Positions 2-17,322 are shown, counted from the first letter of the stretch. The stretch: DNA of 64,000 bases from an uncultured Gemmatimonadaceae bacterium (GCA_963817955.1 CAWFQK010000004.1:1184001-1248000); one strand, 5' to 3'. Numbers and translations: made by a program. The notes: generated from the letters alone by a model not told the origin.

Positions 2-2311
2 CTCGTCGCGTTCCAGCTCGCCGCGAGCGCGCCGTCGCCGTCGCCGTCGGCGTCGGCGTCGGCGTCCCCCGTCTACAACGGCCGCGCCGGACAGATCACG
101 CTGGCACCGCCAAAGATCCAGGCCGACGTCACTATCGACGGACGACTCGACGAGCCCGTGTGGCAGCAAGCGGCGCTGCTCACGGGGTTTTCGCTGTACC
201 ACCCGGCCGACGGCCGCCCGGCGCCCGACTCTACAGAGGTGCGCGTCTGGTATTCGGCAGATGCGATCTATTTCGGCGTTCGCGCCTTTCAATCCAAAGG
301 CAGCGTGTCGGCCACGCTTGCCGATCGCGACCGGGTGAGCGCCGATGACAACGTCGAGATTCATCTCGACACGTTCGATGAGCGCAATCGCGCGCTGGTA
401 TTCATCGTCAACCCGCTGGGCGTGCAGGCCGACGGCACAAAGAGCGAAGCGGGCGGATTCATTCCCGGCTCGAACGTCGAGCCAGGGCAGAACGATCTGA
501 GCGCCGACTTTGTCTGGCAATCCAAGGGACACGTCGAGGACTGGGGATACGAGGTGGAGATCCGCATTCCGTTCAACAGTCTGCGCTATCGGTCCGCCGC
601 GGTGCAGCGCTGGGGTATCCAGATCGATCGCCATGTCCAGCACAGTGGATACGAAGAGACATGGACACCGGCCATACGCGCGTCAGCATCGTTCATCTCG
701 CAAGCGGGGCGGCTCACGGATCTCCACGGTCTGCAGCACGGCCAGCTCGTCGAGCTGAATCCGGAGGTGACGAACACGGTGAACGGGAGTCCCTGCTGCG
801 CCACGACACCAGGATGGACCTATAAGGCGGATCCGCAGGTCGGTGGTAATCTGCGTTGGACGATGGGAAGTAACGCGGTGCTGAACGGCACGGTGCGTCC
901 CGACTTCTCGCAAGTGGAGGCAGACGCAACGCAGATCGCGGCGGATGAGCGGTTCGCGCTGTTCTACCCGGAGAAGCGCCCATTCTTCGTCGAGGCGCTC
1001 GACCAGTTCAACGTGCCAAACACACTCGTCTACACGCGCACCATCGTGCGTCCCGACGCCGCGCTCAAGCTCACCGGCAAGGTCGGACGCGCCGACGTCG
1101 CGCTGCTGTCGGCACTCGACGAAGCACCGTCGGCCAACGGATCTGGTAAGCCGATGGCGGACATCGTCCGGCTGGCTCAGAACTTTGGCGAACAGTCGTT
1201 GGCAGGTCTGTTGTACAGCGACCGCGTCAGCAACGGGCGGACAAACCGGCTCCTTGGCGGCGACACGCACATCGTGTTCGGCGGAAAGTATTTCGCGCAG
1301 TTCCAGCTCGCCGAATCGATGACAGATACCAACGGCGCGACACAACGCGGACCAATGTGGGAAGCCGTGCTCGATGGAACGGGACGCAGCTTTGGCTTCC
1401 ATTACAACGTGATCGGCATCGACAAGGACTTCCGCGCCGACAACGGCTTCGTTCCGCGCACCGGGTTCGTAGAGCCGAACGCCTCCAATCGCTACACATG
1501 GTACGGGCAGCCGGGCGCAGTCGTCGAGCGGTTCAACGTGTTCGGCACGGTAACCGGCCTGTGGAACTACGGTGATTTCTTCAGCGCTCGCAGTCTGCTC
1601 GAGGACAAGGCATCGGCGGCAATGGAGCTCACGGTACGCGGCGGCTGGAGCGTGGGCGTTACGCCGAAAATTTCCACATACGCGTTCGATCCAAGCGCGT
1701 ACACCTTCACGCCCAACAACCGCGTAGAAACGCTCACGAGCCAGTTCAGCATCTCGACACCGCAGTTCCAGAAGTTCGCCGCGTCGGCAGAAGCGACGAC
1801 GGGCAACGACGTGGATTTCATCGAGACCTCGCGCGTGCGGCGGATGGACTACAGCGCGTCCCTCGACCTGCGTCCGAGCTCACGCCTCCGCGTGAGCGCG
1901 ACGTACGTGAGTAGCGCGCTGACGCGCCGGATCGACGGCGAGCTGTCCACGTTCACGCGGATCCCACGGCTCAAGATAGAGTACCAGCTCGCCCGCCCGG
2001 TGTTCGTGCGGGTCGTGTCCCAGTACACCGCCACCAACCGGGAACCGCTGCGGGATCCGCATACGGGACAGATCCTCCTGCTGGGGCCATCCCAGACGCC
2101 GTCGACGCAGAGCTCGAGCAACATCCTGCGCACGGATTGGCTGTTCTCGTACCGGCCGGCGCCGGGCACGGTGTTCTTCCTCGGCTACGGCGGCAGTCTC
2201 GACGAACCGGATCCCTTGGCGTTTCAACGACTGCGCCGGACGAGCGATTCGTTCTTCGTGAAAGCATCCTACGTCTTTCGGATGCCTATTCCGGCAGGCG
2301 GAGCGGAGTAG
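2..2311 (+). CDS. DUF5916 / CBM9-like sugar-binding domain outer-membrane protein (5' partial)
   Basis: The frame is open from the window edge (LVAFQLAAS...VTIDGRLDEPVW). IDGxLDE, TEVRVWY, LNGTVRPDFSQVEAD and FYPEKRPFF are typical of DUF5916/CBM9-like proteins. Beta-barrel-like C-terminus (FFVKASYVF). Confidence 0.8.
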   Translation, partial: LVAFQLAASAPSPSPSASASASPVYNGRAGQITLAPPKIQADVTIDGRLDEPVWQQAALLTGFSLYHPADGRPAPDSTEVRVWYSADAIYFGVRAFQSKGSVSATLADRDRVSADDNVEIHLDTFDERNRALVFIVNPLGVQADGTKSEAGGFIPGSNVEPGQNDLSADFVWQSKGHVEDWGYEVEIRIPFNSLRYRSAAVQRWGIQIDRHVQHSGYEETWTPAIRASASFISQAGRLTDLHGLQHGQLVELNPEVTNTVNGSPCCATTPGWTYKADPQVGGNLRWTMGSNAVLNGTVRPDFSQVEADATQIAADERFALFYPEKRPFFVEALDQFNVPNTLVYTRTIVRPDAALKLTGKVGRADVALLSALDEAPSANGSGKPMADIVRLAQNFGEQSLAGLLYSDRVSNGRTNRLLGGDTHIVFGGKYFAQFQLAESMTDTNGATQRGPMWEAVLDGTGRSFGFHYNVIGIDKDFRADNGFVPRTGFVEPNASNRYTWYGQPGAVVERFNVFGTVTGLWNYGDFFSARSLLEDKASAAMELTVRGGWSVGVTPKISTYAFDPSAYTFTPNNRVETLTSQFSISTPQFQKFAASAEATTGNDVDFIETSRVRRMDYSASLDLRPSSRLRVSATYVSSALTRRIDGELSTFTRIPRLKIEYQLARPVFVRVVSQYTATNREPLRDPHTGQILLLGPSQTPSTQSSSNILRTDWLFSYRPAPGTVFFLGYGGSLDEPDPLAFQRLRRTSDSFFVKASYVFRMPIPAGGAE

Positions 2312-2345
2312 AGAACGGCTCCAGTCCAATGCACGGAGGCGTCGG

Positions 2346-2954
2346 TTACATGTACTTCCAGTTTCGCGGCTTCCCTTCGGACATCCATTCGATGGCCTGT
2401 GCGAGTCGGCGCGCGCGCGTGTCCTCGCCTTTGGCGCTGGCGATCCATTCAACGTACTCACGCTTTTGGCTCGGAGGGAAGCTCTCAAAGGTGGCGTGAG
2501 CCTTCTTGTTCTTGCTGAGCGCCGAAAGGAAATACGCCGGAATCTCGGTCGGCTTCTTCGCCCGCTTCGCCTGGTTCGTCCGTTTCGCTGGGACCGCAAC
2601 GGTGCCGCCGACCTCGTTGAGCGCCATCAGCTGCTTCACCCAGCCGGTAAACACTTTCTTTGATGGAAGATCGGATACCGTCGTCAGGCGGCCGAGCTGC
2701 CCCATCGCCTCGTTGTTCGCCGCATCGCCCACCACGCGACTTCCTTTCCAGAACGTTACCGTTGCGTGATGCTTGAAGCCGGCCATCATGCAGAGAATGC
2801 CGTGATACATGAACGCCGGCATGCCCCACTTGACCGTTTCCTCACAATCGGGACAGGCCAGGTGTACGCGCGCGCGAACTTCCAGGAGGATCGGCTTGGC
2901 GAAGTCGGCGGAGGTGGCGATGTACGCGTCGATGCGCTTATCGGTCTTCGGCAT
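2346..2954 (-). CDS. YdeI/OmpD-associated family protein (DUF1801 + OmdA-like domain)
   Basis: N-terminal IDAYIA...ETVKWGMP (DUF1801-like) and C-terminal F..FPPSQKREYVEWIASAK..TRARRL. Confidence 0.85.
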   Translation of the reverse strand: MPKTDKRIDAYIATSADFAKPILLEVRARVHLACPDCEETVKWGMPAFMYHGILCMMAGFKHHATVTFWKGSRVVGDAANNEAMGQLGRLTTVSDLPSKKVFTGWVKQLMALNEVGGTVAVPAKRTNQAKRAKKPTEIPAYFLSALSKNKKAHATFESFPPSQKREYVEWIASAKGEDTRARRLAQAIEWMSEGKPRNWKYM

Positions 2955-2960
2955 GTCCGC

Positions 2961-5024
2961 TCACCAGATGCGCGGTGTGACCGAGGCGGGCCGTACCATC
3001 GGATCTCCAGCCTTGCAGCCGAAGGCGGCGGCAAATGCCGGGATGTTCGACAGCGGGCCGTTCACGCGCCAGCGCTCCGGCGCGTGTGGATCGACGGTGA
3101 CACGGTTCTTCATCGCCTCGGGCCGCGTGTGGCTGCGCCAGCTCTGCGCGTAGGAGACGAAGAAGCGTTGTTCGGGCGTGAGCCCGTCGATCGCGCCAGG
3201 CCGGCCGTTGCGTTTGAGCGCGAGCTGCAGCGCATCGTACGCCGTGAGCAATCCGCCGTAGTCGGCAATGTTCTCACCGAGCGTGAGTTTGCCGTTCACG
3301 TGGAAGGTGTCGATCTGCACGTACCCGTTGAACTGATCCACCACTTTCTGCGCTTCCTGAGTGAAGTGAACGGAATCGCTCGACGTCCACCAGTCGCGCA
3401 GGTTGCCCTTGGCGTCGAAGTGCCGACCCTCGTCGTCGAAACCATGCGTCAGCTCGTGCCCCGCCCAGCTTCCGCCGAGCGAACCGTAGTTGGCCGCATC
3501 GTCGGCTTTGGGGTCGAACGTCTGCGGCGCGAGTGCGCCGGCAGGAAAGACCATCTCATTCTTGGTCGGGTCGTAGTATGCGTTCACCGTGGGCACGGTC
3601 ATGTCCCATTCCGTCAGATCGACCTTCGCGCCCGGCCGGTTGATCGTGCGCTTCCACTCGAATGCACTGGCGCGCGCCACGTTGAGGACGAACGGTCCTT
3701 CAACCGACTCGAGCTTGGAGTAATCCCGCCAGGTGTCGGGGTACCCAACCTTCTCGTGCATCAGCGACAGCTTCGTGAGCGCCTGCTTCTTGGTCGTGTC
3801 CGACATCCAGTCGAGTTTGCGAACACGTTGCCCGAACGCGGTGCGGATGTCGTCGATCAACGCCTTGGCACGCGCCCGCGCCGCGGGCGGAAAGGTCTTG
3901 GCAACGTACGCCTGGCCAAGCGCTTCACCGATCATATTGTCGGTGGTCTGGAGACAGCGCTTCCATCGCGGCAGCAGCATTTTTGCGCCGGTAAAGCGTG
4001 ACGAGAACGAGAAGTTTTCGTTGACGAACGGACTGCTCAACCAGGGCGATGCGTCGGAGATGGCGTGATAGCGCAGGTACGATTTCCAGTCGTCGATCGG
4101 CGTCTGCGTCACCAGAGCGTCGAGCCGCTTGAAGAAGTCAGGTTCGGCGACGTTGACCTTCTTCACCGGCACGGAGAGCCCGACGTCGTGGAAGTACGCG
4201 ACCCAATCGACGTTCGGCGTCATTGCGTGAAACTGCGCGAGCGCCATCGGGTGGTCCGCGGCGGAAGGGTCGCGGCGAGCGACGCGCTCCATCGATGCCT
4301 TGGCGAGCTCGGTCTCGAGCGCGAGAATGCGTCCAGCCTGCGCACGCGCTCGCGCCGCATCGGCGCCGGCCAGTGTCAGCAAACGCGTGATGTGCTCCAC
4401 GTAGGCGGTGCGCATGGAGTCGGACGCCGGGTCGGTCTTGAGGTAGTAGTCGCGATCGGGCATGCCCAATCCCCCGCGGTCGAAGCCGCCGAGGTAGTGC
4501 GCAGCGTCATGGATATCGACGCCGGCGCCGTAGGAGAATGCGACGTCCGCCCCCTCCATCTGGAGAACAGCGATCTCGTGCAATAGCGAGGCGCGAGAGT
4601 CGATGGCGTCAATCGCGCCGAGCGTCGGCGTGAGCGGCGTGATGCCCGCCTGCTCGGCGGCCGTCGAATCCATGCACGAACCGTAGAACGTGCCGAGCTT
4701 GCGCTCTGTACTCTGCGCCGGAAGCGACCTGCGCTTTGCCATCGCCTCGTCGAGCACCGAGCGCACGACGAGCTGATTGCGGTCGCTCATGTCGCGCCCA
4801 ACACCCGACGATGCATACGCGGCTGGGATGGTGTCGCGCGCAAGCCAGGTGCCGTCGGCGAAATCAAAAAAGTCCGTGCAGGCATTGGCCGACCGATTCA
4901 TGTACTGCGGATCGATGACCTTGAGCGGCAGTAGGGGCGGCGCCGCTGCCGGGGCACGCTGGGCGCGGGCTATCACGGGGACGGCGAGCAGGGTCAGAAG
5001 AAGTGCCAGAGTCGAGCGGCGCAT
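2961..5024 (-). CDS. M13 family metallopeptidase (neprilysin/PepO-like), secreted
   Basis: VNAYY, HELTH zinc motif, GENIAD, DPHAP..WRVNG. Start moved to the ATG at 5024, which begins a signal peptide (MRRSTLALLL...). Confidence 0.93.
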   Translation of the reverse strand: MRRSTLALLLTLLAVPVIARAQRAPAAAPPLLPLKVIDPQYMNRSANACTDFFDFADGTWLARDTIPAAYASSGVGRDMSDRNQLVVRSVLDEAMAKRRSLPAQSTERKLGTFYGSCMDSTAAEQAGITPLTPTLGAIDAIDSRASLLHEIAVLQMEGADVAFSYGAGVDIHDAAHYLGGFDRGGLGMPDRDYYLKTDPASDSMRTAYVEHITRLLTLAGADAARARAQAGRILALETELAKASMERVARRDPSAADHPMALAQFHAMTPNVDWVAYFHDVGLSVPVKKVNVAEPDFFKRLDALVTQTPIDDWKSYLRYHAISDASPWLSSPFVNENFSFSSRFTGAKMLLPRWKRCLQTTDNMIGEALGQAYVAKTFPPAARARAKALIDDIRTAFGQRVRKLDWMSDTTKKQALTKLSLMHEKVGYPDTWRDYSKLESVEGPFVLNVARASAFEWKRTINRPGAKVDLTEWDMTVPTVNAYYDPTKNEMVFPAGALAPQTFDPKADDAANYGSLGGSWAGHELTHGFDDEGRHFDAKGNLRDWWTSSDSVHFTQEAQKVVDQFNGYVQIDTFHVNGKLTLGENIADYGGLLTAYDALQLALKRNGRPGAIDGLTPEQRFFVSYAQSWRSHTRPEAMKNRVTVDPHAPERWRVNGPLSNIPAFAAAFGCKAGDPMVRPASVTPRIW

Positions 5025-13336: not shown

Positions 13337-14158
13337 ATGACTTCAACACGCGATCGCGATTACGTGCTCGGCACGCATGACGAAGAGGTGATGCGCCTGG
13401 GCCTGCAGCACAACGTCTGGCGGCCACGCGCGCTGGCAGCGTGGTATCGCGCGGGCTTCAACGTTGGACAGACCATTCTCGACGTCGGCAGCGGACCGGG
13501 GTATGCAACCCTCGATCTCGCGGAGCTCGTAGGACCAACCGGACGTGTCATAGCGGTCGATCGGTCGCGCCGATTTCTCGACGCGCTGGAGGAGCGCCGC
13601 GATGCCCGTGGACTCGAGCATGTCCGCGTGATCGAAGCCGACCTCGACGACGTGTCCTTCGACGCGGCGAGCGCGGACGGGGCGTGGTGTCGCTGGGTGC
13701 TCGCCTTTGTGCCGCGCCCACGCGACCTGCTGGCGCGCGTCGCACGTGCGCTCAAACCAGGTGCCACGTTTGCAATCCATGAATACTTCGACTACGCCGC
13801 GTGGCATGTCATCCCACGCTCGCCGCTGTTCGAGGAATTCGTCAGCGCGACGATCGACAACTGGCGGCGCAGCGGAGGCGAACCGGACATCGGACTCGAG
13901 CTGCCGCGCTGGCTCGAGGAACTCGGTTTCGAGATCACAGTCATCCGGCCGATCATCGACGTGATCTCCGCCCGCGATTATGCCTGGCAATGGCCGACAA
14001 CCTTCATGCAGATCGGCTTGCAGCGGCTCGCCGAAACGGGCGCGATTCCACAAGATCGCGCCGCATCGATCGGCGCCGAGCTACGTCAGATTTCCGACTC
14101 GACAACGGCACGAATGATTACGCCTGGAGTGCTCGAGGTGGTGGCGCGGAAACGGTGA
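13337..14158 (+). CDS. Class I SAM-dependent methyltransferase
   Basis: Motif [19 protein letters not shown]. The 3' end overlaps the convergent hom gene by 41 nt. Confidence 0.9.
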
Positions 14159-15275
14159 GCGGCGTTGGCCCGCGCTCGGCAATGAGGCGCAGCAGGTCGT
14201 TGTACACGCCGGCGGCGGTAACCGCCGGCCCGGCTCCTGGCCCGGTGATGACGAGTGGCTGCGCCTTGTAGCGCCTCGTGGTGAAGGAGAATTGGTTGTC
14301 GGTCCCATGCAGCAGGCTGAGCGGATCAGTCGCCGGTACTTCGGCCAGTCCCACGCGGACACTGCGACGGGTGGCGCGAGCGCGATAACGCAACACCGCA
14401 CCGCGCGAACGCGCCGCCTCCACTCGCGCCGCCCAAACAGCGTCGAGCTCAGGCATGCGTGCCAGGAATTCGTCGATCGCTACGTCCTGCAACGACCGCG
14501 GAACGAGGGATTCGACGCGCACCGCCTCGAGGTCGCCGCGGAACCCGATGATGCGTCCGAGAATCAGCGCCTTGCGCGCAACGTCGAGTCCAGACAGATC
14601 GACGCGCGGATCAGGCTCGGTGTATCCGGCCGCAATCGCATCACGCAGCGCCGTGGAGAAGCTGGTGCCTCGTCCGAGTTGGCCGAAGACGAAACCGAGC
14701 GTGCCCGACGGACAACCCTCGATGGCACTCACACGATCGCCGGCGTCGATCAGTTTGCGCAGTGTGTCGATGACCGGTAGTCCGGCGCCGACGGTGGCTT
14801 CGTGCAGAATTTCAGCACCGCCCGCCCGCGCGATTTCATGAAGCTGGTCGACACGCGCTTGCGCGCCGGCGATCGGCACCTTGTTCGCCAGGATGACGTC
14901 CCACCCACGTTCGAGCACGATCTCGAGGATGTGCTGCGTATCAGCGGCCGTTGCGTCGACGATCACCGGGCGTCCCGCAAGTCTCGCCGACATGAACGCG
15001 ACGGCGTCGGCGGGACTGGCGCGCAGACCGAGCGCGGAGGCATGCAGTGGCTGCCCGCTCTTCTTGTGCGCACAGAGCGCGATCAACGAGCGACGCGACA
15101 GGCCTTGGGGGTCGATCACATAGCCGGTTCGGTCCACCAGTCCGCATACCCGAAGGCGCGACGAAATGCCGTTCTTCGTGGAGGTGAGCTGGCCGAGCAG
15201 CTCTCGGCCGATCGACCCGACGCCCAACAGCACGACGTCGGTACTTCGGAATTCGTATCTGGATAGGTCGCTCAT
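14118..15275 (-). CDS. hom: Homoserine dehydrogenase (monofunctional, similar to the HSD domain of ThrA/MetL)
   Basis: GVGSIG Rossmann motif, ILANK, EATVGAGLPVI, SGTLGF, GYTEPDPRVDLSGLDVARK, GPGAGPAVTAAGV. GAGGAG RBS at 15287-15282 supports the start at 15275. Confidence 0.9.
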   Translation of the reverse strand: MSDLSRYEFRSTDVVLLGVGSIGRELLGQLTSTKNGISSRLRVCGLVDRTGYVIDPQGLSRRSLIALCAHKKSGQPLHASALGLRASPADAVAFMSARLAGRPVIVDATAADTQHILEIVLERGWDVILANKVPIAGAQARVDQLHEIARAGGAEILHEATVGAGLPVIDTLRKLIDAGDRVSAIEGCPSGTLGFVFGQLGRGTSFSTALRDAIAAGYTEPDPRVDLSGLDVARKALILGRIIGFRGDLEAVRVESLVPRSLQDVAIDEFLARMPELDAVWAARVEAARSRGAVLRYRARATRRSVRVGLAEVPATDPLSLLHGTDNQFSFTTRRYKAQPLVITGPGAGPAVTAAGVYNDLLRLIAERGPTPLTVSAPPPRALQA

Positions 15276-15301
15276 GTCGTTCTCCTCGATCGTTGGCGCA
15301 C

Positions 15302-15338
15302 AAAGAAAAACCCCCGATTCTCGCGCGAGAATCGGGGG
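15302..15338 (-). terminator. Intrinsic terminator / attenuator hairpin in the hom leader
   Basis: Palindrome CCCCCGATTCTCGCGCGAGAATCGGGGG (15311-15338) followed on the minus strand by TTTTTCTTT, about 27 nt upstream of the hom ATG. Confidence 0.88.
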
Positions 15339-15367
15339 GGGTGAACAGCGGATGCGTGCTCGATGAG

Positions 15368-15460
15368 CTATGTGCGCATGCGTCGTCGTCCGTCCGTTCC
15401 TCTCGCGAGGCAAGCGGCCGCCATGGACATTCGCATCTGCATTTGACACATCGAGATCAT
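15368..15460 (-). CDS. Putative Met-rich attenuator leader peptide (30 aa: MISMCQMQMRMSMAAACLARGTDGRRRMRT)
   Basis: Read directly: ATG ATC TCG ATG TGT CAA ATG CAG ATG CGA ATG TCC ATG ... TAG. Six Met among the first 13 codons, 7 in total. The stop lies about 30 nt before the terminator. The RBS is weak. Confidence 0.72.
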   Translation of the reverse strand: MISMCQMQMRMSMAAACLARGTDGRRRMRT

Positions 15461-15483
15461 CGATCGTCTTTGTTGATTGCATG

Positions 15484-15522
15484 AAAACAGAAAAGCCCGG
15501 ACGAGTGACAGCCGCCGGGCTT
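15484..15522 (-). terminator. Terminator-like hairpin directly 3' of the SAM-II-like aptamer
   Basis: Stem AAGCCCGG/CCGGGCTT (15522-15515 / 15500-15493) followed by TTCTGTTTT on the minus strand. Confidence 0.7.
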
Positions 15523-15527
15523 GTCGC

Positions 15528-15578
15528 GTTTTAGCACTTTGTTTTACGTGGCGGCAATGGGCGGCAAATCACCACGAG
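15528..15578 (-). ncRNA. SAM-II (SAM_alpha-type) riboswitch aptamer
   Basis: Minus strand: CGUGGUGAUUUG-ccgccca-UUGC-c-GCCACG-UAAAACAAA-gu-GCUAAAA. P1 CGUGGU/GCCACG, GAUUU, UUGC, A-rich linker and GCUAAA match the SAM-II consensus as I recall it. It lies upstream of a Met-pathway gene. Confidence 0.8.
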
Positions 15579-15595
15579 CATTCAGTTGTCCGGAG

Positions 15596-15624
15596 ACATT
15601 AACCCAATTCCAACGATCGGTCAA
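15596..15624 (-). promoter_or_regulatory. Putative sigma70 promoter for the hom leader
   Basis: TTGACC (15624-15619), 17-nt spacer, TAATGT (15601-15596). The predicted start site falls about 13 nt before the aptamer P1. Confidence 0.6.
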
Positions 15625-17270
15625 GAGTGCACTGGCGCTGTACGCCCGCCGGTGGTGTCGGATGGCTGCGTATTGGCGCGTAGCATCTGCTCCAACTCTC
15701 TCACACGAGATGGCGACCAGTCAGCGAGGCACTGCGCCCGGACACGCGCGTACACCGGGCCATCCCCTACGTCGCGGCACGCGGCCTCGCGGTCGTTCAT
15801 CCACTTCCGTTGCTCGACACGCAGTTGCTCAACGGATGGCGGGTCGGGGTCGCCGGGCTGCGCATTTGCTCGACGTCGCAACGCCGAGATCAGCCGCTGG
15901 TAGACCGCGTTGAGCGGCCCATCGTTGCGCTCGATCGCCGCGGACAGACAGGCGCGCTGGTCCGCCGCGTCCGGCGCGTCGCACGCGGCGTCCGTGATCG
16001 CGGGCTTGGTCACGAGCGTGTCGAGCGAGACCGGCGGTGTGGGCGCCGGCATGCGGACTATCGGCGGGGTAATGCCGGGCTCGTGACGCCGCGTCGTGGG
16101 CGGCGCGATCGGATTTATCGGATACAGCGGAATGACGGTCGGCGGAATGCTCGCTGGCGGCGCGACCTGCTGCGGCAATGGTGCCATTGGTTGCGTCTCC
16201 GGCGTTGGGATTGGTGAGACGATCACCGGTTGCTGCGGCATGGGTGCGGGTGGCGAGTCGACGATCGCCGTGTCGCCCGGATGCAGCGCAATGTCGCCCG
16301 ACGCGAGGCTGCTGGTGTCGTTCAGCGTGCTACCGATCTCGTCGGAAGACGAGCGTTGGCGCAACAGCACCCCCAGCACACCGAGGATCGCGATCACCGC
16401 CACCGCCGTCGCGACGCGTGCGCCGAATCCGTACGGCCGCTTCACGATGATCACTGCGGGTTCGTCGGACGGCCCCGCCGGCATGGTGGATGCCGCAGCG
16501 GCCGGCATCGCCACCTCGACCGCAGCGCCAAGTGGGGCGAGCGACGCGATGTACGCCGCGACATTGCGCGGCGGAGCGCCGCGGTCGCAACGGATCAACG
16601 CGTCGGTTTCCTCTATGACGTGCGCCGGCAGGCCGGGACGCACGTCGGCGAGTGCCGGCGCCCGAGGTTCATTGCGGCGATGCCCGCTGAGCATCTCGTA
16701 CGCCAACCGCCCGATCGTTGCCGCGTCGTCGCAGGCGTCGGGGAGCGCGCCGGCGCGCAGCGGAACGGGATCGAGCGCCAGCAGCACCCGACCGCTTCCC
16801 TGCTGGAACACGAGCGCGTCCTCCGACACGTAGCGATGCACCACGTTATTGGTGCGCGCCCACTCGAGCACCGATTGCACCTGCTCGAGCGTCGTCGCCA
16901 CACGAGGCAAGGGCATAGGACCGGCGGTATTCACGAGCTGTCCGAGCGTGGAGCCTCGCACGCGCGCGCGCACGATCGCGAATGCGCCGTCGTCCAACCA
17001 CCGCCCCTCGATGACCGGAATCAGATTCGGATGGCGCAGCACGGTCAGCGCGCGCGCGTCCGCTGCGAAATGCGTGAGGCTGTTGTGGTCCCCGGTGCTG
17101 CCTGAACCGCTGGGCGGGCGCACCATCGTGATCGTGACGTCGCGGTTGAGCGCGAGATGCCGCGCGAGATACGTCCGCGAGTCGCCTGATCGGTGGAGCT
17201 CGGTCAGGATCTGATAATCATTCTCGAGCGTGCCCCACGCGGGAAACCGATCGTCCGTCGGGCTCTGCAT
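15621..17270 (-). CDS. Membrane pseudokinase: degenerate Ser/Thr kinase fold + TM + Pro-rich linker + LprI/DUF1311-like domain
   Basis: Kinase-like YLARHLALNRDV, LRHPNLIPV, VVHRY, IGRLAYEMLSG. TM helix VATAVAVIAILGVLGVLL. C-terminal C..QRACL..LNAVYQRL..EQRKW..R..AC..CL. Start uncertain (17270/17276/17285). Confidence 0.75.
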   Translation of the reverse strand: MQSPTDDRFPAWGTLENDYQILTELHRSGDSRTYLARHLALNRDVTITMVRPPSGSGSTGDHNSLTHFAADARALTVLRHPNLIPVIEGRWLDDGAFAIVRARVRGSTLGQLVNTAGPMPLPRVATTLEQVQSVLEWARTNNVVHRYVSEDALVFQQGSGRVLLALDPVPLRAGALPDACDDAATIGRLAYEMLSGHRRNEPRAPALADVRPGLPAHVIEETDALIRCDRGAPPRNVAAYIASLAPLGAAVEVAMPAAAASTMPAGPSDEPAVIIVKRPYGFGARVATAVAVIAILGVLGVLLRQRSSSDEIGSTLNDTSSLASGDIALHPGDTAIVDSPPAPMPQQPVIVSPIPTPETQPMAPLPQQVAPPASIPPTVIPLYPINPIAPPTTRRHEPGITPPIVRMPAPTPPVSLDTLVTKPAITDAACDAPDAADQRACLSAAIERNDGPLNAVYQRLISALRRRANAQPGDPDPPSVEQLRVEQRKWMNDREAACRDVGDGPVYARVRAQCLADWSPSRVRELEQMLRANTQPSDTTGGRTAPVHS

Positions 17271-17283
17271 GTGCATCCTGCGC

Positions 17284-17322
17284 AAAAAAAACCAGTGGCG
17301 CCCGTCCTTCGGACGCCACTGG
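17284..17322 (-). terminator. Intrinsic terminator of ilvE
   Basis: Stem CCAGTGGCG/CGCCACTGG followed by T8 on the minus strand, 35 nt after the ilvE stop. Confidence 0.85.

What the first reader, a model, noticed from the sequence alone, without database searches (positions are those of the whole stretch)
15275..15624. Tandem two-input leader: SAM-II riboswitch/terminator in series with a methionine leader-peptide attenuator upstream of homoserine dehydrogenase
Seen, in transcription order on the minus strand: TTGACC-N17-TAATGT promoter (15624-15596) -> SAM-II-like aptamer (15578-15528) -> hairpin+U tract (15522-15484) -> 30-codon ORF with 6 Met in 13 codons (15460-15368) -> perfect GC hairpin + U tract (15338-15302) -> GAGGAG -> hom ATG (15275). 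The 345-bp intergenic region is almost fully explained by these parts. Known: homoserine dehydrogenase supplies Met/SAM synthesis. SAM-II riboswitches and ribosome-mediated attenuators (trp, his, thr, leu) are each established, and tandem riboswitches act as logic gates. Inference: hom is transcribed only when both SAM and charged Met-tRNA are low (NOR gate). I am not aware of a described SAM-II + Met-leader tandem. This is the best candidate for an undescribed system in the window.
Basis: partly seen in the sequence, partly recalled or inferred. Interest (0 to 1): 0.93.

Follow-up and report, generated by a model that had tools for sequence, protein, structure and literature searches.

The report
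SAM riboswitch plus methionine leader-peptide attenuator
The leader of this soil bacterium's homoserine dehydrogenase gene holds two stop-or-go switches in a row, a known SAM-sensing RNA and a short methionine-rich reading frame, so the gene is probably made only when both SAM and methionine run low.

Summary
Rfam finds one family in the 64-kb window: a SAM-II (RF00521) aptamer at 15585-15514(-), 37.1 bits against a cut-off of 36. It is followed by a hairpin with a U tract, a 30-codon ORF with Met at codons 1, 4, 7, 9, 11, 13 and 28, a second perfect terminator, a ribosome-binding site and hom.

The layout is conserved. I saw 23 such tandems in 22 Gemmatimonadota genomes. They stand before metX(-metB-hom), hom, metY, aspartate kinase and two other gene types. 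None of 50 SAM-II leaders before metH has the second module.

The ORF folds into a long hairpin next to the terminator, with compensatory changes. The stretch before each terminator pairs best with its own terminator arm.

Relatives carry equivalent leaders rich in Asn, His, Thr, Phe, Leu or Cys before the matching pathway genes. The second module is therefore most likely a ribosome-mediated, Met-sensing attenuator.

My literature searches found no described Met leader peptide and no riboswitch/leader-peptide tandem.

Nothing has been tested experimentally.

The parts
15596..15624 (-). Promoter-like site: -35-like hexamer 15624-15619, 17-nt spacer, -10-like hexamer 15601-15596. The -35 overlaps the stop codon of the upstream gene.
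   Evidence: Read. A -35-like hexamer stands at the same distance before the aptamer in 13 of 13 leaders printed. Not reported by the consensus scan, because the -10 matches only 3 of 6.
15514..15585 (-). SAM-II (SAM_alpha, RF00521) aptamer. P1 strands at 15576-15571 and 15552-15547; conserved 3' tail around 15535-15529.
   Evidence: 37.1 bits, gathering score 36, model positions 1-79 of 79. E 7.4e-07 on the 501-nt stretch. Coordinates.
15483..15521 (-). Terminator 1, the expression platform of the riboswitch: stem 15521-15494, then a U-rich tract to 15483.
   Evidence: -18.1 kcal/mol. An alternative fold pairs the aptamer's 5' half with the terminator's 5' arm and loop. It has -33.5 kcal/mol against -32.5 for P1 plus terminator.
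15368..15460 (-). Leader ORF, 30 codons plus stop. Met codons at 15460, 15451, 15442, 15436, 15430, 15424 and 15379 (first base of each).
   Evidence: All 7 ATG triplets in the stretch are in one frame.
15408..15455 (-). Region 1: the 5' half of the long ORF hairpin. It carries the Met codons.
   Evidence: RNAalifold on 8 leaders. Pair counts on 16 leaders.
15359..15403 (-). Region 2: the 3' half of the ORF hairpin. Its 5' part (about 15404-15389) can instead pair with the 5' arm of terminator 2 to form the antiterminator. The stop codon (15370-15368) lies inside region 2.
15302..15338 (-). Terminator 2 (regions 3 and 4): perfect 12-bp stem 15338-15311, then a T tract 15310-15302.
   Evidence: 12 pairs, 8 G-C, loop 4. 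(-23.8 kcal/mol). Six of its pairs show compensatory changes among 16 leaders.
15282..15287 (-). Ribosome-binding site of hom.
   Evidence: Aligns with the site before hom in four relatives.
14118..15275 (-). hom, homoserine dehydrogenase, 385 aa. It appears monocistronic, because the next gene (13337-14158) is on the other strand.
   Evidence: Pfam Homoserine_dh 154.4 bits and NAD_binding_3 35.1 bits. ORF table.

Best explanation
This is a two-stage transcription attenuator in one 5' leader. Transcription starts a few bases before the aptamer.

Stage 1 is a SAM-II riboswitch acting as an OFF switch. With SAM bound, P1 and the pseudoknot hold the aptamer together and hairpin 1 terminates transcription near 15485. 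Without SAM, the aptamer's 5' half can pair with the 5' arm of hairpin 1, and the polymerase reads on.

Stage 2 is a classical ribosome-mediated attenuator whose sensing codons are Met codons.

- Met-tRNA plentiful: the ribosome runs through the ORF. The long hairpin formed by the two halves of the ORF (regions 1 and 2) re-forms behind it. Terminator 2 (regions 3 and 4) then stops transcription near 15303.
- Charged elongator Met-tRNA scarce: the ribosome stalls on the clustered Met codons in region 1. Region 2 is freed and pairs with the 5' arm of terminator 2. The polymerase then reaches hom.

The terminators are in series, so hom mRNA is made only when SAM is low and Met-tRNA charging is low. 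That is NOR logic on SAM and methionine.

Shown here: the aptamer match, both terminators, the conserved ORF with in-frame Met codons, the 1:2 and 3:4 pairings with compensatory changes, the terminator-specific 2:3 complementarity, and the gene association.

Inferred: SAM binding, translation of the ORF, stalling, and the logic.
For: 1. Aptamer.
- RF00521 passes its gathering score in the window.
- It is found in 53 of 61 genomes of the order and in 0 of 14 control genomes.

2. A second copy of the whole layout in the same genome.
- It stands before an O-acetylhomoserine sulfhydrylase gene, with TIGR01326 at 610.7 bits against a cut-off of 495.1.
- A third SAM-II, before metH, has no ORF module.

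3. Census of the 84 SAM_alpha matches.
- One weak match inside a gene was dropped.
- The ORF-plus-second-terminator module follows 17 of 83. Fifteen were found by an automatic rule. L035 and L152 were added on their R1 scores of 197 and 76.8 bits.
- By downstream gene: 12 of 16 metX-like, 1 of 1 hom, 1 of 1 metY-like, 1 of 1 aspartate kinase, 2 of 4 ATP-grasp, 0 of 50 metH-like, 0 of 1 metF, 0 of 3 panB, 0 of 6 threonine-synthase-like.
- Six more tandems came from model searches in other genera and families.

4. Met richness is the conserved feature.
- The leaders carry 3 to 16 Met codons.
- ATG triplets inside the 17 ORFs fall 112 in frame, 1 and 1 out of frame.
- Indels are multiples of three.
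- One relative has expanded the Met-containing repeat to 16 Met in 46 codons.

5. Structure.
- On 16 leaders, the 1:2 hairpin plus terminator has 87.6% of cells paired, against 35-47% when partners are slid.
- Thirteen pairs have changes on both sides, and 0 of 500 shuffles reach any of the five measures.

6. Antiterminator.
- 88.9% of cells are paired, against 52-68% when slid.
- Over 21 leaders, the 75 nt before each terminator pair better with their own terminator arm (-22.0 kcal/mol) than with other leaders' arms (-18.7). None of 20000 permutations reaches this.
- A control segment further upstream gives -10.6 against -10.6, reached by 11466 of 20000 permutations.

7. Same kind of leader for other amino acids in relatives.
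- Asn run before asnB.
- His-rich before hisG.
- Thr run before aspartate kinase.
- Phe-rich before prephenate dehydratase.
- Leu/Val-rich before leuA.
- Cys-rich before an ATP-grasp/SfnG-like operon.

8. Modularity. Orthologous genes carry SAM-II alone, the Cys/Met leader alone, or both.

9. Riboswitch switch geometry. The antiterminator and P1-plus-terminator folds are nearly isoenergetic, -33.5 against -32.5 kcal/mol.
Against: - No experiment and no RNA data bear on this. No RNA run is listed for this stretch.
- The aptamer score is only 1.1 bits over the cut-off, and the pseudoknot is not scored by the model.
- The window's leader ORF has no Shine-Dalgarno-like run before its start codon, and neither do most relatives. 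L152, L161 and L199 do have one.
- Substitutions in the ORF show no codon periodicity: 13, 13 and 13 variable columns at positions 1, 2 and 3. Translation is therefore supported only by frame, start, stop and Met codons.
- The antiterminator columns are almost invariant and show no column-wise covariation. 285 of 500 shuffles reach the observed percentage paired.
- In free-RNA folds the 2:3 pairing often wins thermodynamically even without a stalled ribosome. The model therefore leans on folding kinetics.
- Four of 16 metX leaders lack the module. One relative, L058, keeps both hairpins but has no Met-rich ORF.
- The leaders compared are related, so shuffle and permutation figures overstate independence.
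- Methionine shortage would also slow initiation of the leader ORF itself. How that affects the switch is unknown.
Confidence: 0.75

Rival explanations
1. Module 2 is a ribosome-mediated attenuator, but it reads general translation capacity or the sulfur amino-acid pool (Cys and Met together, or initiation with formyl-Met) rather than elongator Met-tRNA charging specifically.
For: Five of the 23 tandems and all stand-alone versions have mixed Cys/Met leaders. The window ORF also has 2 Cys codons. No codon periodicity points to a selected peptide.
Against: In 18 of 23 tandems Met dominates, with 3-16 Met against 0-2 Cys. Eleven of the 12 leaders of the same genus other than the window's have no Cys at all, and the twelfth (L047) also has none. 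Leaders for Asn, His, Thr, Phe and Leu in relatives each match the product of the gene they precede. This argues for amino-acid-specific sensing.
Confidence: 0.1
2. The spaced AUG triplets are the binding site of a trans-acting factor, such as a TRAP-like RNA-binding protein or a small RNA. That factor controls the hairpin choice, and the ORF is incidental.
For: The AUG triplets are regularly spaced, mostly 6 nt apart, and sit in the strand that competes for region 2. No Shine-Dalgarno-like run precedes the ORF. No codon periodicity is seen.
Against: Start codon, reading frame and stop position are kept through 3-nt indels and a 16-Met expansion. Divergent leaders keep Met or Cys codons but not the sequence. 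Equivalent leaders with other amino-acid runs stand before the matching genes. No candidate factor gene was looked for.
Confidence: 0.05
3. Only the SAM-II riboswitch regulates. The second hairpin is a constitutive partial terminator or an RNA-stability element, and the Met-rich ORF is chance or a relic.
For: Four of 16 metX leaders and all 50 metH leaders work with SAM-II alone. L058 keeps the hairpins without a Met-rich ORF.
Against: The Met cluster has P = 3.8e-6 per ORF. It recurs in 23 leaders across several families with the frame kept. The 1:2 hairpin shows compensatory changes. The upstream strand tracks its own terminator. The module is restricted to particular genes.
Confidence: 0.06
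4. Hairpin 1 is just the terminator of the upstream gene, and hom is transcribed from a promoter between 15484 and 15460. The aptamer would then not be in the hom mRNA.
For: Hairpin 1 lies 100-140 nt after the upstream stop codon. The -10 hexamer of the proposed promoter is weak.
Against: Only about 22 nt separate the U tract from the leader ATG, and no promoter-like site is found there. The aptamer-hairpin unit occurs in 83 leaders with unrelated upstream DNA, each behind a conserved -35-like hexamer. The order aptamer, hairpin, ORF, hairpin is kept in 23 leaders.
Confidence: 0.03

Closest known systems
Tandem SAM-I riboswitch / Met T-box leaders of Firmicutes (Sherlock et al. 2022, PMC9481103; passages and Table 2 read)
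   Same: Same two inputs (SAM and the charging state of tRNA-Met). Same gene targets (metX and metY are named there). Two sensors in series in one 5' UTR, each with its own terminator. Expression is predicted only at low SAM and poor charging.
   Different: Both parts differ: SAM-II instead of SAM-I, and a translated Met-codon ORF instead of a tRNA-binding T-box RNA. The phylum is different. That review does not use the words 'leader peptide' or 'uORF' anywhere (0 occurrences).
SAM-II riboswitch (metA element, RF00521; Corbino et al. 2005, PMC1273637, passages read; S. meliloti metZ/metA, PMC9373788, abstract read)
   Same: The aptamer passes the family model. A promoter sits a few bases before P1. 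An intrinsic terminator after the pseudoknot gives a predicted OFF switch. It precedes methionine genes.
   Different: Described mainly in alpha-proteobacteria, with a few other proteobacteria and Bacteroides. Here it is in Gemmatimonadota. No paper in the searched library holds both 'Gemmatimon' and 'SAM-II'. Here it is followed by a second, translation-dependent attenuator.
Classical leader-peptide attenuators (trp, his, leu, thr, phe operons of proteobacteria; recalled from textbooks; distribution statement read in PMC2965389)
   Same: A short ORF with clustered codons for the pathway's product. Four regions form mutually exclusive 1:2, 2:3 and 3:4 hairpins. An intrinsic terminator stands just before the first structural gene.
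   Different: The sensing codons are Met codons, for which my searches found no described example. The whole 1:2 hairpin lies inside the ORF, with the stop codon at its 3' base. Mostly no Shine-Dalgarno site. It is placed behind a riboswitch.
Polycysteine short-ORF attenuators of mycobacteria (bioRxiv 10.1101/834739; listing and start of abstract only)
   Same: Short upstream ORFs rich in a sulfur amino acid control downstream operons according to that amino acid's supply. They resemble the Cys/Met-mixed leaders seen in relatives.
   Different: Those are leaderless ORFs rich in Cys. The window's leader is Met-rich, sits behind a riboswitch and uses an intrinsic terminator.
mgtA leader of Salmonella: Mg2+-sensing RNA with the proline-codon ORF mgtL (recalled; PMC6460261 seen as listing and abstract only). 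Also B12 riboswitch/uORF interplay in M. tuberculosis metE (PMC11260477, abstract read)
   Same: One leader combines a ligand-sensing RNA with a translated short ORF, so two signals act on one gene.
   Different: There the ORF is embedded in or overlaps the sensing RNA, and the two share one expression platform. Here the two modules are separate, each with its own terminator, and each is also found alone.
SAM-I / AdoCbl tandem riboswitch of Bacillus clausii metE, a NOR gate (described in PMC9481103, passages read)
   Same: Two OFF switches in series with separate terminators before a methionine gene, giving NOR logic.
   Different: Both sensors there are metabolite aptamers. The second input is coenzyme B12, not amino-acid charging.

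Membership tests
SAM-II riboswitch (Rfam RF00521, SAM_alpha) | Scores at or above the family's gathering score over the full model | tested here: met
   37.1 bits against 36, model positions 1-79 of 79. The margin is narrow. Same-type aptamers in relatives score 36.7-48.4 bits.
SAM-II riboswitch (Rfam RF00521, SAM_alpha) | P1 stem closing a loop with the conserved U-rich segment, and a conserved A-rich 3' tail | tested here: met
   The cmscan alignment shows six P1 pairs with none flagged as non-standard, and matches the conserved loop and tail letters. Coordinates.
SAM-II riboswitch (Rfam RF00521, SAM_alpha) | Pseudoknot and triple helix between loop and 3' tail that encloses SAM | tested here: inconclusive
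   The covariance model does not score the pseudoknot. I only saw by eye that the loop and tail motifs co-occur in all printed leaders. No pair count was made.
SAM-II riboswitch (Rfam RF00521, SAM_alpha) | Sits in the 5' leader of methionine/SAM genes, with a promoter just before P1 and often an intrinsic terminator after it (Corbino 2005) | tested here: met
   Of the 83 leaders, 50 precede metH-like genes, 16 metX-like, and others hom, metY, metF and aspartate kinase. Passages of PMC1273637 read.
SAM-II riboswitch (Rfam RF00521, SAM_alpha) | Binds SAM and changes structure | not testable with these tools
   Needs in-line probing or calorimetry.
Ribosome-mediated (leader-peptide) transcription attenuator | Short ORF with a cluster of codons for the pathway's end product | tested here: met
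   Six Met in the first 13 codons. P = 3.8e-6 given a Met fraction of 0.022. Conserved in 23 leaders.
Ribosome-mediated (leader-peptide) transcription attenuator | Intrinsic terminator between the ORF and the first structural gene | tested here: met
   12-bp G+C-rich stem and T tract at 15338-15302. Six of its pairs show compensatory changes.
Ribosome-mediated (leader-peptide) transcription attenuator | Region 1, holding the sensing codons, pairs with region 2 | tested here: met
   helices 1-3 have 76.5-89.2% of cells paired, with 7 pairs changed on both sides. Slid controls give 35-47%.
Ribosome-mediated (leader-peptide) transcription attenuator | Region 2 can alternatively pair with the terminator's 5' arm (antiterminator) | tested here: inconclusive
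   The pairing potential is present and specific to the cognate terminator (0 of 20000 permutations reach it). There is no column-wise covariation, because the columns hardly vary.
Ribosome-mediated (leader-peptide) transcription attenuator | Ribosome-binding site before the leader ORF, and translation of the ORF | tested here: not met
   No Shine-Dalgarno-like run lies in the 15 nt before 15460. Such a run is present in L152, L161 and L199 only. Translation itself cannot be tested here. This lowers confidence in membership but not in the structural switch.
Ribosome-mediated (leader-peptide) transcription attenuator | Read-through rises when the cognate aminoacyl-tRNA is scarce | not testable with these tools
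   Needs coupled transcription-translation or reporters.
Tandem two-input RNA logic gates (tandem riboswitches sensu Sherlock et al. 2022) | Two sensors in one 5' UTR, each with its own expression platform, with no promoter or gene between them | tested here: met
   Two terminators in series. About 22 nt separate the first U tract from the leader ATG. No promoter-like site is found there.
Tandem two-input RNA logic gates (tandem riboswitches sensu Sherlock et al. 2022) | Each sensor also exists on its own, so the modules are independent | tested here: met
   SAM-II alone occurs in 66 of 83 leaders. Cys/Met leaders without SAM-II occur in L060, L155, L159, L200, L203, L208, L213, L219 and L223. 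Pure Met-rich leaders were seen only behind SAM-II.
Tandem two-input RNA logic gates (tandem riboswitches sensu Sherlock et al. 2022) | Both sensors are ligand- or tRNA-binding RNA domains | tested here: not met
   The second sensor is a translated ORF. No Rfam family matches it. It works like such a gate but is not a tandem riboswitch in the strict sense.

The most novel reading that the evidence does not exclude
Gemmatimonadota use a modular code of leader-peptide attenuators. This includes a Met-codon attenuator, a specificity not found in my literature searches. They bolt it behind SAM-II riboswitches only on genes that make homocysteine de novo (aspartate kinase, hom, metX-metB, metY, a threonine-synthase-family gene). 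Genes of the methyl cycle (metH, metF) listen to SAM alone. The cell would thus tell 'too little methionine for protein synthesis' from 'too little SAM for methylation' at the RNA level. [quoted passage not shown]
Probability: 0.6. Interest if true: 0.8.

Novelty: new variant of a known kind. Interest (0 to 1): 0.72.

Why it matters
Leader-peptide attenuation is a textbook mechanism, yet my searches of the held library found no methionine-sensing example. Such a switch is odd in principle, because the sensing codon is also the start codon. A natural one would show how that is solved.

It would also be the first riboswitch placed in series with a leader-peptide attenuator as two separable modules. 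That adds a new kind of part to the catalogue of natural RNA logic gates.

The gene-by-gene distribution gives a clear, testable physiological rule. Both inputs act on de novo homocysteine synthesis, and SAM alone acts on metH and metF.

It also extends leader-peptide control (Met, Cys, Asn, His, Thr, Phe, Leu) to Gemmatimonadota, a widespread and little-studied soil phylum.

For annotation there is a practical point. The hom frame is open up to 15482, so gene callers may swallow the leader.

Tried and rejected
- RNA evidence. The look-up of sequencing runs listed 3 soil-metagenome DNA runs of one study and no RNA holder.
- Column-wise covariation of the antiterminator gave nothing, because the columns are invariant.
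- Codon-position periodicity of substitutions gave nothing (13/13/13).
- Looking for the leader through hom relatives failed. None of 80 hom loci has a SAM-II core or a Met-rich short ORF within 700 nt upstream. In close relatives the leader lies two genes further up.
- Sub-threshold Rfam hits on the stretch (NsiR1, asX2, BcKCsr7, anti-hemB, SAM-II long-loop) are all far below their cut-offs. They look like terminator or partial matches.
- Many R1/R2 hits were plain terminators or coding sequence and were set aside: L051-L053, L055-L057; L205, L207, L209-L211, L214, L216, L220; L224, L229.
- L202, L206, L212, L225-L228, L230 and L231 were not read.
- L218 comes from an unpublished genome (G231).
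- Alignment A2 was polluted by reverse-strand matches of the palindromic hairpins and was not used.
- The constrained folds mostly returned the unconstrained fold, because my constraint did not bite. Only its unconstrained folds are cited.
- Scripts stopped with errors after partial output.
- 'Pseudokinase' for the upstream gene: Pfam shows only LprI.
- The first search of earlier findings by place returned nothing.
Full report
WHAT IS THERE

On the minus strand, between the stop of the upstream gene (15621) and the hom start (15275), the sequence reads as follows.

- Promoter-like hexamers at 15624-15619 and 15601-15596, with a 17-nt spacer.
- A SAM-II aptamer.
- A hairpin (stem 15521-15494) with a U-rich tract to 15483.
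- A 30-codon ORF at 15460-15368.
- A perfect 12-bp G+C-rich hairpin at 15338-15311 with a T tract to 15302.
- A purine-rich ribosome-binding site at 15287-15282.
- hom at 15275-14118.

Rfam at gathering thresholds finds exactly one family in the whole 64-kb window. It is SAM_alpha (RF00521) at 15585-15514(-), 37.1 bits against a cut-off of 36, over the full model.

The consensus scan finds the second hairpin as a terminator. It misses the first, whose loop is longer than the scan allows. It reports no sigma-70 promoter, because the -10 matches only 3 of 6.

Pfam confirms hom, with Homoserine_dh at 154.4 bits. The upstream gene shows only an LprI domain and no kinase domain.

The ORF has Met at codons 1, 4, 7, 9, 11, 13 and 28. 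The genome's Met fraction is 0.022, so five or more Met in 12 codons has P = 3.8e-6.

A scan of the whole genome found 75 ORFs with four closely spaced Met codons, 24 of them 70 codons or shorter. Only two of those have a T run about 56 nt after the stop, and both lie just 3' of a SAM-II hit.

THE ORGANISM AND ITS OTHER SAM-II LEADERS

The closest hom relatives in public genomes are titled Gemmatimonadaceae or Gemmatimonadales MAGs. The window therefore most likely comes from that family of Gemmatimonadota.

The window's own genome has three SAM_alpha matches.

- One stands before a metH-like gene. The aptamer and terminator are followed directly by the gene.
- One is the window's.
- One (33.1 bits, below the cut-off) stands before an O-acetylhomoserine sulfhydrylase gene.

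The third has the same full layout as the window. It has a strong promoter-like site, aptamer, hairpin with T run, a 33-codon ORF with 5 Met and 3 Cys, a second terminator and a ribosome-binding site.

CENSUS ACROSS RELATIVES

SAM_alpha matches occur in 53 of 61 genomes of the order, 52 of them over the cut-off, and in none of 14 control genomes.

I fetched all 84 matches (and loci). I dropped one weak match that lies inside a gene and lacks the aptamer core. I named the downstream gene of the other 83 with Pfam.

| Downstream gene | SAM-II leaders | With second module |
|---|---|---|
| metH-like | 50 | 0 |
| metX-like | 16 | 12 |
| threonine-synthase-like | 6 | 0 |
| ATP-grasp | 4 | 2 |
| panB | 3 | 0 |
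| metF | 1 | 0 |
| hom (the window) | 1 | 1 |
| metY-like | 1 | 1 |
| aspartate kinase | 1 | 1 |

A Met/Cys-rich short ORF followed by a second terminator was found by an automatic rule in 15. Two more (L035, L152) failed the rule's T-run or Met-count thresholds but match my model R1 at 197 and 76.8 bits. That makes 17 of 83.

Model searches in more genomes added six tandems.

- Two stand before hom of another type.
- Two stand before metX.
- One stands before aspartate kinase.
- One stands before a threonine-synthase-family gene in another family of the class.

The aptamers were checked with Rfam. Five of these six pass the cut-off. L201 does not pass and rests on my motif match only.

In all I saw 23 tandems in 22 genomes. 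Eighteen are Met-dominated (3-16 Met, 0-2 Cys) and five are mixed Cys/Met.

IS THE ORF MODULE A LEADER-PEPTIDE ATTENUATOR?

Evidence for:

1. RNAalifold folds the ORF into one long imperfect hairpin. The Met-codon half pairs with the other half, and the stop codon sits at the hairpin's 3' base. The terminator follows.
2. On 16 leaders, 87.6% of cells are paired, against 35-47% with slid partners. Thirteen pairs change on both sides. None of 500 shuffles reaches any measure.
3. The 5' part of the second half resembles the terminator's 3' arm and can pair with its 5' arm. 88.9% of cells are paired there, against 52-68% when slid.
4. That pairing has no column covariation, because the columns hardly vary. 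I therefore tested whether it tracks the terminator across lineages. Over 21 leaders, the 75 nt before each terminator pair with their own arm at -22.0 kcal/mol and with other leaders' arms at -18.7. None of 20000 permutations reaches this. A control segment further upstream gives -10.6 against -10.6.
5. The frame is kept. ATG triplets inside the 17 ORFs fall 112 in frame and 2 out of frame. The frame was chosen for most Met, so this is biased, but all-in-one-frame holds in each lineage.
6. Indels are multiples of three.
7. One relative has expanded a Met-containing repeat to 16 Met in 46 codons.
8. The same architecture, with other amino-acid runs, precedes the matching genes in relatives:
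   - Asn before asnB.
   - His before hisG.
   - Thr before aspartate kinase.
   - Phe before prephenate dehydratase.
   - Leu/Val before leuA.
   - Cys before an ATP-grasp/SfnG-like operon.

Evidence against:

- No Shine-Dalgarno-like run stands before the window's leader ATG, and most relatives lack one too.
- Substitutions show no codon periodicity (13/13/13).
- Free-RNA folds often prefer the antiterminator even without a ribosome.
- One relative keeps both hairpins without a Met-rich ORF (L058).
- There are no RNA data.

MECHANISM (INFERRED)

Stage 1. In the window the fold that pairs the aptamer's 5' half with hairpin 1's 5' arm and loop (-33.5 kcal/mol) is nearly isoenergetic with P1 plus terminator (-32.5). 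SAM binding could therefore tip the balance to termination. In relatives either fold is the minimum. This matches the OFF-switch layout described for the family (PMC1273637, passages; PMC9373788, abstract).

Stage 2. A ribosome stalled on the last Met codons (15430-15422) would cover region 1 down to about 15408. That frees 15404-15389 to pair with 15338-15327, so the terminator cannot form. A ribosome that runs to the stop at 15370 leaves regions 1 and 2 free to re-pair behind it, and the terminator forms.

With two terminators in series, hom needs low SAM and poor Met-tRNA charging.

OPERON CONTEXT

In four of six relatives fetched, the same leader is followed by metX (succinyl type, NF006449 over its cut-off), metB and then hom. 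These are colinear, and that hom is 74-80% identical to the window's.

The window genome lacks that metX-metB pair. The best tblastn matches are 31% and 40% identical and lie elsewhere. The genome is 94% complete.

The window's hom start region aligns with the metB-hom junction of the relatives. The leader here is therefore most simply a remnant of that operon, now fused directly to hom.

COMPARISON WITH WHAT IS KNOWN

Both modules belong to known kinds. The combination and the Met specificity were not found in print by my searches.

- No relevant paper turned up for Met leader peptides or attenuators.
- None for Gemmatimonadetes with riboswitch or leader peptide.
- None for 'Gemmatimon' with 'SAM-II' (0 papers).
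- The 2022 catalogue of tandem riboswitches does not mention leader peptides or uORFs (0 occurrences).
- That catalogue does list nine SAM-I/T-box(Met) tandems before metX and metY. They sense the same two inputs with different parts. This is the closest functional analogue.

The held library lacks most subscription journals, so an earlier description cannot be excluded.

My L232 is of that kind. Such notes are not independent evidence.

VERDICT

I rate it a new variant of known kinds. It is of clear interest to RNA-regulation specialists and is directly testable.

Noticed in passing
L049, L054 (Asn); L154 (His); L204 (Thr); L215 (Phe); L217 (Leu/Val); L155, L159, L060, L213, L219 (Cys-rich), each about 1500-1700 in locus coordinates: Relatives in Gemmatimonadales carry leader ORFs with runs of one amino acid plus a terminator before the matching genes: asnB, hisG, aspartate kinase with ACT domains, prephenate dehydratase, leuA, and an ATP-grasp/SfnG-like operon. 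Leader-peptide attenuation seems to be a general device of this phylum.
   Followed up: partly
L168, L169, L174 (panB); L028, L162-L165, L167 (threonine-synthase-family genes with a Cys-rich N-terminal extension): SAM-II plus terminator also precedes ketopantoate hydroxymethyltransferase genes (3 leaders) and threonine-synthase-family genes (6 leaders). Earlier notes of this scan suggest the latter are MetM-type homocysteine-synthesis genes. I did not test that.
   Followed up: no
window 15275-15310; L233-L236 about 500-3800: In four relatives the same leader controls metX-metB-hom. The window genome has the leader fused directly to hom and lacks that metX-metB pair (best matches 31% and 40% identical, elsewhere). 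This points to a deletion of about 2.1 kb. The window's Hom N-terminus is also about 11 codons shorter in the alignment.
   Followed up: partly
window 15275-15482 (-): The hom reading frame stays open upstream to an ATG at 15482, giving a 454-aa ORF that swallows terminator 2 and the leader ORF region. Automatic gene callers could mis-start hom there.
   Followed up: no
L058 (G079), about 765-913: One relative keeps SAM-II, both hairpins and the antiterminator-like segment before metX but has no Met-rich ORF. It may be a decayed copy, or it may work in another way.
   Followed up: no
window 15621-17285 (-): The 554-aa upstream gene shows only a C-terminal LprI (lysozyme-inhibitor-like) domain in Pfam.
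   Followed up: partly
window 15428-15436 and the same place in relatives: The codon between the central Met codons is almost always the same Arg codon, which I recall to be rare in G+C-rich genomes. The predicted pairing with region 2 explains its conservation, but it might also slow the ribosome.
   Followed up: no
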